From an uncultured Bacillota bacterium (GTDB lineage Bacteria; Bacillota_I; Bacilli_A; RFN20; CAG-826): a DNA stretch of 64,000 bases. Where the stretch lies: the NCBI GenBank assembly GCA_949299565.1, contig OX437086.1:880099-944098 (forward strand), given 5' to 3'. The stretch's first letter is position 1. Each line of letters begins with the position of its first letter. This document shows positions 20,016 through 20,207 of this stretch, piece by piece. Below the pieces are notes generated by a model. That model was not told where the DNA came from. It saw nothing but the letters and a program-made list of their open reading frames with translations, and made no database searches. Made by a program: the position numbers and the translations under genes.

Positions 20016-20057
20016 TAACTTTTATCTCCTTATCCACTCTTTTCCCTAAGTATAAGA

Positions 20058-20065
20058 CCCCCCCC
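20058..20065 (-). repeat. Poly(G)8 (plus-strand C8) tract in the promoter spacer of gene 19740..20015
   Basis: On the minus strand reads TTGCAT-ttca-GGGGGGGG-tct-TATACT, then RBS and ATG about 35 nt downstream; the spacer is 15 nt at the current tract length. Confidence 0.5.
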
Positions 20066-20207
20066 TGAAATGCAAGGTTTTTTGACTAAGGAGTGAACTC
20101 TGATCGATAAAAACAAGAGTTAAAAACTATCAAGTTTCCTGAAATGTTTAAATTTTTATTCATTTTTTAGCAAATCTGATTTCAATAAAAAACATACATA
20201 GAAACAT

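What the first reader, a model, noticed from the sequence alone, without database searches (positions are those of the whole stretch)
20016..20100. Poly(G)8 tract in the promoter spacer of a small membrane-protein gene
On the minus strand the sequence reads TTGCAT-ttca-GGGGGGGG-tct-TATACT, then RBS AAGGAGAT and ATG. The G-run sits between the -35-like and -10-like hexamers and gives a 15-nt spacer at the current length; two more G would give the optimal 17. Homopolymer-length control of promoter spacing is an established phase-variation mechanism in other bacteria. It lies only 3 kb from the in-ORF C8 tract.
Basis: partly seen in the sequence, partly recalled or inferred. Interest (0 to 1): 0.55.

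Follow-up and report, generated by a model that had tools for sequence, protein, structure and literature searches.

The report
Variable poly-G tract inside a promoter
A run of eight G's sits between the two halves of the promoter of a small membrane-protein gene; the run is kept in a whole group of uncultured gut-type Bacilli and changes length between otherwise identical strains, so it is very probably a mutational expression switch of a known type, found here in an unstudied group of bacteria.

Summary
On the minus strand: TTGCAT (20075-20070), TTCA, G8 (20065-20058), TCT, TATACT (20054-20049), AAGGAG, ATG (20015), then a 91-aa ORF and a terminator.

The window has only two G/C runs of 7 or more. 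The other lies in a lipoprotein ORF 3.2 kb away.

Orthologues in about 11 further lineages of uncultured Bacilli (GC 21-53%, synonymous sites mostly saturated) keep the same layout: a -35, then 4-6 nt, then G6-G11, then 0-7 nt, then a -10.

Tract length differs within at least five lineages. In one, contigs from different samples have no substitutions over up to 6.3 kb and differ only by G7, G8 or G9.

Two lineages have no tract and carry ordinary 16- or 17-nt spacers, so the hexamers are a real promoter. Where the gene is a pseudogene, the tract is interrupted or short.

Main caveat: no sampled allele gives a 16- or 17-nt spacer (11-15 or 18-24 instead), and G number does not compensate for flank length. 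Sampled populations look predominantly low or OFF, and the dependence of expression on tract length is inferred, not shown.

The protein's function is unknown. Verdict: new member of a known kind.

The parts
20078..20083 (-). A6 tract just upstream of the -35 (UP-element-like). The block conserved between strains with different upstream genes starts here.
   Evidence: Similarity between strains with and without the extra acetyltransferase gene begins at AAAAAAYCTTGCAT. A-rich stretches precede the -35 in most other lineages.
20070..20075 (-). -35-like hexamer TTGCAT
   Evidence: Orthologous loci have TTGACT, TTGACA, TTGAAA, TTGATT or TTGATA at the same place.
20058..20065 (-). Poly-G tract, G8 (C8 on the + strand), inside the 15-nt spacer TTCA-G8-TCT (20055-20069)
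   Evidence: G7 in L005 and G8 in the 7 other same-lineage contigs. G6-G11 in orthologous promoters.
20049..20054 (-). -10-like hexamer TATACT
   Evidence: Orthologues have TATAAT, TATATT, TAAAAT, TACAAT, TACACT or TATACT.
20026..20031 (-). Ribosome-binding site AAGGAG, 10 nt before the ATG
   Evidence: GGAGG or AAGGAG is conserved upstream of the aligned start codon in orthologues.
19740..20015 (-). 91-aa ORF: a small protein with an N-terminal beta-alpha-beta-beta domain, one hydrophobic helix (residues 55-73) and a conserved C-terminal strand. Function unknown.
   Evidence: dN/dS is 0.07-0.23. No match in Pfam, PHROGs, PADLOC or NCBIfam.
19697..19727 (.). Bidirectional intrinsic terminator hairpin shared with the convergent lipoprotein gene
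   Evidence: 11-12 bp stem with T runs on both strands.
16892..16899 (+). Second hypermutable tract: C8 inside the 991-aa lipoprotein ORF (codons for Pro-Pro after the Ser-rich linker)
   Evidence: C9+AC is in frame in L003 and L006 (996 aa). C8+AC is out of frame in L004 (ORF called as 924 aa).

Best explanation
The G8 run is a hypermutable spacer in the sigma-A-type promoter of a monocistronic small-membrane-protein gene.

Proposed mechanism: slipped-strand mispairing during replication adds or removes G's. This changes the distance and helical phasing between the -35 (TTGCAT) and -10 (TATACT) hexamers, and so changes, heritably and reversibly, how much of the gene is transcribed. This is the porA / tp0126 mechanism.

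At G8 the spacer is 15 nt, which predicts weak or no transcription. G9-G10 (16-17 nt) would be the strong state. The promoter and gene travel together as a cassette. The tract has been kept by selection across a whole clade of uncultured Bacilli, and most sampled populations sit in low/OFF configurations.

Shown here:
- the anatomy of the promoter;
- conservation of the tract in place;
- length polymorphism limited to the tract;
- canonical 16/17-nt spacing in the tract-less relatives;
- purifying selection on the ORF;
- decay of the tract where the gene is dead.

Inferred: the slippage mechanism, the transcription start, the dependence of expression on tract length, and which lengths are ON.
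For: 1. Anatomy.

2. Tract rarity. The window has only two G/C runs of 7 or more. The promoter tract is the only run of 7 or more in nearly all orthologous loci.

3. Conservation. Eleven further lineages keep -35, 4-6 nt, G6-G11, 0-7 nt, -10, RBS. These are L009/L017, L011-L015, L016, L018/L024-L032, L020, L021, L022/L043-L045, L046-L047, L048-L049, L050 and L052. Their GC is 21-53% and protein identity to the window is 39-69%. The remaining intergenic sequence is unalignable, and synonymous sites in the ORF are saturated for most pairs.

4. Length polymorphism:
- The L018 lineage has G7 in three contigs, G8 in four and G9 in one. L018 has no substitutions against L025, L026, L027, L028 or L032 over 0.8-6.3 kb, and the tract is the only gap.
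- The window lineage has G8 and G7.
- The L022 lineage has G8 and G9.
- L009 has G11 and L017 has G9.
- Further alleles are read from Gly codons of ORF calls that run through the tract: G10 (P0024, P0036, P0056), G11 (P0030), G6 (P0043, P0038, P0046).

5. The hexamers are a real promoter. Tract-less lineages have TTGACT-N16-TATAAT (L033-L042) and TTGATA-N17-TACAAT (L051) at the same place.

6. The tract is linked to gene function. The frameshifted lineage L019/P0016 has an interrupted tract (GGGAGG, GGGTGGG). Its 96.7%-identical relative L050, with an intact ORF, has G9.

7. The ORF is under purifying selection, with dN/dS 0.07-0.23.

8. G/C tracts are demonstrably unstable in this organism. 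The lipoprotein tract differs by one C between L003 and L004, and that is the only indel between them.

9. The mechanism is established elsewhere: porA (PMC3899988) and T. pallidum tp0126, which has a poly-G between -35 and -10 with an optimum at 17 nt (PMC7864442).
Against: - No expression data and no mapped transcription start.
- None of about 25 alleles gives a 16- or 17-nt spacer. The observed values are 11-15, or 18-24 and 28. Several (11-12 nt) are four or more slips from 16.
- G number (mode 8-9) does not fall as flank length rises: flank sum 5 goes with G6-10, 7 with G7-8, 9-10 with G9-11 and 13 with G9-11. What is conserved is therefore the tract rather than a 17-nt spacing.
- In the window no terminator or stable structure lies in the 192 nt between the upstream Na+/H+ exchanger gene and the small gene. 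Read-through could express the gene whatever the tract length.
- Variation is seen between assemblies, not within a clone, so switching rate and reversibility are untested. Some alleles come from low-coverage contigs, or are inferred from protein sequences on the assumption that the Gly codons are GGG.
Confidence: 0.6

Rival explanations
1. The G tract is conserved as a cis-element in its own right, for example as the site of an unknown regulator or as a structural element that keeps a good -35/-10 pair deliberately mis-spaced. Length changes would then be incidental, or would only fine-tune expression. On this view expression is controlled by a factor, not by stochastic ON/OFF slippage.
For: - The start of the tract is anchored 4-6 nt after the -35 in every lineage, whereas the distance from tract to -10 varies from 0 to 7 nt.
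- G number does not compensate for flank length, and the spacer is never 16-17 nt.
- A second promoter of the same design lies 330 nt downstream of the small gene in L050. This hints at a reusable regulatory module.
Against: - No single factor is known that rescues both too-short (11-15) and too-long (18-24) spacers.
- Two lineages replaced the tract with ordinary 16/17-nt spacers while keeping the hexamers.
- A protein-binding site would not be expected to tolerate G6 through G11.
- There is no dyad symmetry around the tract, and no regulator gene is conserved next to the cassette.
Confidence: 0.17
2. The tract is hypermutable but has little regulatory consequence for this gene. The gene would be transcribed mainly by read-through from upstream genes or from the -10 alone, and the tract would persist by mutational inertia.
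For: - No terminator lies between the exchanger gene and the small gene in the window.
- Many alleles are far from any functional spacing.
Against: - A neutral G8-G11 run would not survive in the same promoter position across lineages whose synonymous sites are saturated, in genomes of 21-33% GC.
- It decays where the ORF is dead.
- Upstream neighbours differ in every lineage, and within the window's own species, while the promoter block stays attached to the gene.
Confidence: 0.13
3. The length differences are homopolymer sequencing or assembly errors, and the tract is really invariant.
For: - Homopolymers are error-prone.
- L030 and L032 come from contigs of about 1x coverage.
- Only one G7 contig was seen in the window's lineage.
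Against: - Each length class recurs in independent samples and assemblers: G7 three times and G8 four times in the L018 lineage, and G9 three times against G8 in the L022 lineage.
- Two-base differences occur (G9 vs G11).
- The same contigs show no other indels over kilobases.
- Long A/T runs in the same contigs are mostly stable.
Confidence: 0.03

Closest known systems
Neisseria meningitidis porA promoter (poly-G between -35 and -10)
   Same: A homopolymeric G run forms most of the spacer of a sigma-70-type promoter of a membrane-protein gene. A gain or loss of one G changes the spacing and the transcript level (PMC3899988; PMC7864442). A 15-nt spacer corresponds to the no/low-expression state in porA (from my own knowledge of van der Ende et al. 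1995).
   Different: Here the host is a Gram-positive-type uncultured Bacilli lineage, not a pathogen. The product is a 91-aa single-helix protein of unknown function, not a porin. The tract is conserved across many deeply diverged species. No natural allele at the optimal 16-17 nt was found, whereas porA isolates commonly carry the ON length.
Treponema pallidum tp0126 (OmpW homologue) and the tprE/G/J and tprL poly-G promoters
   Same: Variable poly-G tracts of 7-11 G lie inside promoters. For tp0126 the tract lies between -35 and -10, with best transcription at a 17-nt spacing. Annotated ORFs wrongly read through the tract (PMC7864442). The same gene-calling artefact occurs here (P0002, P0003 and P0010).
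   Different: The phylum and the target proteins differ. In the tpr genes the tract overlaps the -10 or start-site region rather than the spacer. In T. pallidum, within-isolate variation and reporter effects were measured, whereas here they are only inferred.
Mollicutes promoter-spacer switches (Mycoplasma hyorhinis vlp poly-A; M. mycoides Vmm TA repeats). Recalled from my own knowledge, not checked in a paper here.
   Same: A simple repeat between the -35 and -10 sets the ON/OFF state of a membrane or surface protein in small-genome, low-GC relatives of Bacilli. A neighbouring surface lipoprotein is also phase-variable.
   Different: The repeat is poly-A or TA, not poly-G, and the targets are abundant variable lipoproteins in multigene families. 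Here the promoter switch controls a single-copy, conserved small protein.

Membership tests
Promoter-spacer simple-repeat phase variation (porA / tp0126 type) | A homopolymer or short repeat lies between recognisable -35 and -10 hexamers upstream of the gene | tested here: met
   TTGCAT-TTCA-G8-TCT-TATACT, then RBS and ATG. Orthologues share the layout. Tract-less relatives have the same hexamers at 16 and 17 nt.
Promoter-spacer simple-repeat phase variation (porA / tp0126 type) | Tract length is polymorphic among closely related strains, far above the background mutation rate | tested here: met
   G7, G8 and G9 are the only difference in up to 6.3 kb of otherwise identical contigs. There are 2-4 alleles in each of five lineages.
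Promoter-spacer simple-repeat phase variation (porA / tp0126 type) | Length heterogeneity within a clonal population, with reversible switching | not testable with these tools
   No read-level data and no cultures; only assembled consensus contigs were available.
Promoter-spacer simple-repeat phase variation (porA / tp0126 type) | Transcript or protein level depends on tract length, with an optimum near a 17-nt spacer | not testable with these tools
   No expression data. Indirectly, no natural allele has 16-17 nt. This neither confirms nor excludes the dependence.
Promoter-spacer simple-repeat phase variation (porA / tp0126 type) | The transcription start lies a few nt downstream of the -10, so the tract is not transcribed | not testable with these tools
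   Inferred only from the hexamers and the short leader. Read-through from upstream cannot be excluded.
Reiterative transcription at a G run (B. subtilis pyrG type) | The G run is at the transcription start, downstream of the -10, and is paired with a leader terminator | tested here: not met
   The tract lies upstream of the -10-like hexamer in every lineage. The leader has no terminator or significant structure (z = 0.43).
Known cis-regulatory RNA (riboswitch or leader) | A match to an Rfam covariance model at or above the gathering score | tested here: not met
   The only gathering-level matches in the window are three tRNAs. Around the promoter there is nothing above threshold, and the weak hits all sit on the terminator hairpin.
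Any described protein family for the 91-aa product | A significant profile match (Pfam, NCBIfam, PHROGs, PADLOC) or a specific fold match | tested here: not met

The most novel reading that the evidence does not exclude
The promoter and gene form an ancient 'default-OFF' cassette maintained across a whole clade of uncultured small-genome Bacilli.

On this reading the small membrane protein is harmful or strongly counter-selected when made constitutively, yet is needed in rare circumstances such as phage attack, transmission or stress. Selection therefore keeps a mutable G tract that holds the promoter just outside the functional 16-17 nt window.

Support so far:
- no sampled allele has a 16- or 17-nt spacer;
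- the P0012 lineage, which has fixed a canonical 16-nt spacer, carries only alleles with ATA in place of the start codon or with a frameshift in an internal A6 run;
- the tract decays in pseudogene lineages;
- a second promoter of the same design occurs in L050.
Probability: 0.25. Interest if true: 0.7.

Novelty: new member of a known kind. Interest (0 to 1): 0.55.

Why it matters
Switches based on simple repeats are textbook biology for a handful of pathogens (Neisseria, Haemophilus, Campylobacter, Helicobacter, Treponema, Mycoplasma). They are hardly documented in uncultured commensal Firmicutes/Bacilli.

Here two such loci sit 3 kb apart. One is in a promoter and one is in a lipoprotein ORF, and both vary in natural populations.

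The promoter switch is conserved in place over a depth of divergence at which synonymous sites are saturated. That makes it an unusually clear case of selection for mutability itself.

It also flags an unknown 91-aa membrane protein as something these bacteria need to turn on only rarely. Finally, it shows a practical annotation problem: gene callers extend the ORF through the tract, so the 'protein length' changes with G number.

Tried and rejected
- **Promoter pattern scan of JGI metagenomes.** An exact-flank pattern with a variable gap gave 0 hits. The protein-based scan gave only one locus, identical to L018.
- **Census of -35/-10 spacings.** I tried this in the window and the loci to learn the organism's preferred spacer. 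It was too noisy to use, so the 17±1 optimum rests on general knowledge plus the two tract-less orthologous promoters.
- **RNA-level explanations.** No Rfam family matches, and the intergenic region has no significant fold.
- **Reiterative transcription and alternative sigma factors** (sigma-B GGGTAT, sigma-F/G-like GCAT...CATACTA). Rejected because the partner hexamers and spacings do not fit, and the other lineages have plain TTGACT/TATAAT.
- **Tract as an in-frame translational switch for an N-terminally extended isoform.** Rejected. The extensions are not conserved, have no RBS and contain the promoter itself. The window has an in-frame TAA 9 nt upstream of the ATG.
- **Phage origin of the gene.** No relatives in IMG/VR and no PHROG or PADLOC hits.
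- **Conserved gene neighbourhood.** None: the neighbours differ in every lineage.

Full report
**1. What is in the sequence**

On the minus strand the region reads AAAAAA-CC-TTGCAT-TTCA-GGGGGGGG-TCT-TATACT. Coordinates: -35 at 20075..20070, G8 at 20065..20058, -10 at 20054..20049. After 17 more nt comes AAGGAG (20031..20026), then 10 nt, then ATG at 20015.

The ORF (20015..19740) encodes 91 aa. It is followed directly by a bidirectional terminator hairpin at 19697-19727, shared with the convergent 991-aa lipoprotein gene.

The consensus scan missed the site only because it accepts 16-18 nt spacers.

In the 64-kb window (39.5% GC) the G/C run lengths are 4:97, 5:15, 6:1, 7:0, 8:2. The two 8-mers are this tract and a C8 at 16892-16899 inside the lipoprotein ORF, 3.16 kb away. 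Both are outliers: about 0.05-0.3 runs of that length are expected.

**2. The gene**

- The 91-aa product has no Pfam, PHROG, PADLOC or NCBIfam match.
- It belongs to a very small family: 17 clusters at 90% identity, and 11 representatives among 1.84 billion proteins.
- The family is absent from IMG/VR and is found only in uncultured Bacilli/Firmicutes MAGs.
- The AlphaFold model (pLDDT 69) has a beta-alpha-beta-beta N-terminal domain, a long helix at 56-77 and a C-terminal strand.
- Residues 55-73 are strongly hydrophobic and are preceded by seven Lys/Arg. By the positive-inside rule this suggests an N-in, single-pass anchor (inference).
- Where dS can be estimated, dN/dS is 0.07-0.23; for most pairs the synonymous sites are saturated.

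This is therefore a real, selected gene of unknown function.

**3. Comparative anatomy of the promoter**

Using exact-protein look-ups and a scan of GTDB species genomes, I collected 52 loci. I aligned them on the conserved start codon.

Besides the window's lineage, eleven lineages (GC 21-53%, protein identity to the window 39-69%) have the same layout: an A-rich stretch, a -35 (TTGACT, TTGACA, TTGAAA or TTGATT), 4-6 nt, a G run, 0-7 nt, a -10 (TATAAT, TATATT, TAAAAT, TACAAT, TACACT, TATACT, TATCCT or CACAAG), and an RBS. The rest of the intergenic DNA is unalignable.

In almost every locus the tract is the only G/C run of 7 or more in 4-12 kb. In the AT-rich genomes 0.004-0.06 such runs are expected.

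Two lineages lack the tract and instead have ordinary spacers between the same hexamers: TTGACT-N16-TATAAT (L033-L042) and TTGATA-N17-TACAAT (L051). This is the best available evidence that the hexamers are a genuine sigma-A-type promoter, and that 16-17 nt is the normal spacing for it in this clade.

In the window's own species, some strains carry an extra hexapeptide-acetyltransferase gene between the Na+/H+ exchanger and the small gene. Similarity resumes exactly at AAAAAAYCTTGCAT. The promoter therefore belongs to the small gene, not to its neighbourhood.

**4. The tract is hypermutable in nature**

| Lineage | Tract lengths read from contig DNA |
|---|---|
| L018 | G7 (L018, L024, L027), G8 (L025, L026, L028, L032), G9 (L029) |
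| Window | G8 (window, L001-L004, L006-L008), G7 (L005) |
| L022 | G8 (L022), G9 (L043-L045) |
| L009 / L017 | G11 (L009, L010), G9 (L017) |

In the L018 lineage, L018 has zero substitutions against L025, L026, L027, L028 and L032 over 0.8-6.3 kb. The single gap is the tract.

Gene callers often extend the ORF upstream through the tract. The Gly codons in those spurious N-termini therefore report further alleles, on the assumption that the codons are GGG:
- G10: P0024, P0036, P0056
- G11: P0030
- G6: P0043, P0038, P0046

The neighbouring lipoprotein tract behaves the same way. C8+TGGAG is in frame in the window (991 aa). C9+ACTGGAG is in frame in L003 and L006 (996 aa). C8+ACTGGAG in L004 truncates the called ORF to 924 aa, and that tract is the only indel between L003 and L004.

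**5. Link between the tract and gene function**

L019 and P0016 belong to a lineage 96.7% identical to L050. Their ORF is frameshifted and their tract is interrupted (GGGAGG and GGGTGGG). L050 has an intact ORF and G9.

L023 has lost its start codon (ATG to ATC), is frameshifted, and has only G6.

In the tract-less P0012 lineage with the canonical 16-nt spacer, every allele seen has one of two lesions:
- ATA in place of the start codon (P0012, P0064, P0069);
- an intact ATG with a frameshift in an internal A6 run (P0065, P0066, P0017).

**6. The feature that does not fit the simplest model**

Spacer lengths, counted from the end of the -35 to the start of the -10:

| Lineage | Spacer length (nt) |
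|---|---|
| Window | 14, 15 |
| L018 | 12, 13, 14 |
| L020 | 14 |
| L021 | 12 |
| L052 | 14 |
| L022 | 11, 13, 14 |
| L023 type | 11, 15 |
| L046 | 14 |
| L048 | 14 |
| L050 | 15 |
| L009 / L017 | 18, 19, 20 |
| L011 | 19, 20 (and 28 in one odd allele) |
| L016 type | 22, 24 |

- No allele gives 16 or 17 nt. The short group stops at 15 and the long group starts at 18.
- G number (mode 8-9) does not shrink as the flanks lengthen.
- Lineages are few and alleles within a lineage are not independent. For ten lineages drawn uniformly from 11-22 nt, the chance of none at 16-17 is about 0.16. I treat the gap as suggestive only.
- It fits populations that are predominantly in low/OFF states, and it weakens the idea that selection often favours the 17-nt state.

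**7. Mechanism and rivals**

Best explanation (confidence about 0.6): this is a porA/tp0126-type contingency promoter. Slipped-strand mispairing changes the G number, and so the -35/-10 spacing, and so transcription. The window's G8 allele is predicted to be weak or OFF, and G9-G10 strong. The mechanism is established for porA (PMC3899988) and for T. pallidum tp0126, with the tpr genes as variants (PMC7864442).

Rivals:
- The tract is a length-tolerant cis-element or regulator site (0.17).
- The tract is hypermutable but has little regulatory consequence, with expression coming from read-through (0.13). No terminator lies in the 192-nt gap after the exchanger gene.
- The length differences are sequencing artefacts (0.03).

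RNA-level explanations, reiterative transcription, alternative sigma factors and an N-terminal-extension isoform were examined and rejected.

**8. Verdict**

This is a new member of a known kind of switch. It is notable for three things: its host group, its deep conservation, and the apparent absence of ON-length alleles. Expression dependence, the start site, within-clone switching and the protein's function all remain to be shown.

Noticed in passing
window 16892-16899 (+), inside ORF 16704-19679: The C8 tract in the 991-aa Ser-rich lipoprotein gene varies between strains. C9+AC is in frame (L003, L006; 996 aa). C8+AC is out of frame (L004; ORF called as 924 aa). C8 without the AC is in frame in the window. 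This is a classical in-ORF phase-variable surface protein next to the promoter switch.
   Followed up: partly
window ~20076-20207; L003 4337-4900: A presence/absence polymorphism within the species. Some strains carry a 187-aa hexapeptide-repeat acetyltransferase gene between the Na+/H+ exchanger and the small gene. The window, L001, L002 and L005 lack it. The breakpoint lies immediately upstream of the A6 tract that precedes the -35.
   Followed up: partly
L050 3608-3640: A second promoter of the same design (TTGACA-TTTTC-G8-CT-TATAAT, then AAGAGG) lies 330 nt downstream of the small gene, with 13 nt upstream of the -35 identical to the first promoter. The contig ends before the gene it would drive. 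The region is absent from the 96.7%-identical L019.
   Followed up: partly
L033-L042 (~2990-3080); proteins P0012, P0064-P0066, P0017: In the lineage whose promoter has a canonical 16-nt spacer and no G tract, every allele has either ATA where the start codon should be, or an intact ATG with a frameshift in an internal A6 run (TRSKKW becomes TRSKNGL). A similar A-run frameshift is seen in P0016 and L019.
   Followed up: partly
L009, L011-L016, L043-L045 (proteins P0002, P0003, P0010 and their cluster members): Gene callers extend the small ORF upstream through the promoter and the G tract whenever the frame is open. The deposited 'proteins' of 112-120 aa are therefore artefacts, and their length and poly-Gly stretch change with tract length.
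   Followed up: yes
window ~16800-16880 (Ser-rich linker of the lipoprotein) vs L003: A 12-nt indel lies in a GATGAGGAT-type trinucleotide-rich repeat that encodes the Ser/Asp-rich linker. There is also a one-base difference in an A run beside the shared terminator (window ~19730). These are further repeat-length polymorphisms between strains.
   Followed up: no
L011 1-4694: In one related species the small gene lies directly downstream of a 1038-aa TIR-domain protein and a 606-aa partner. In L048 it lies next to an IS element and a GmrSD-type restriction gene. The cassette therefore sometimes sits in variable, defence-type regions.
   Followed up: no
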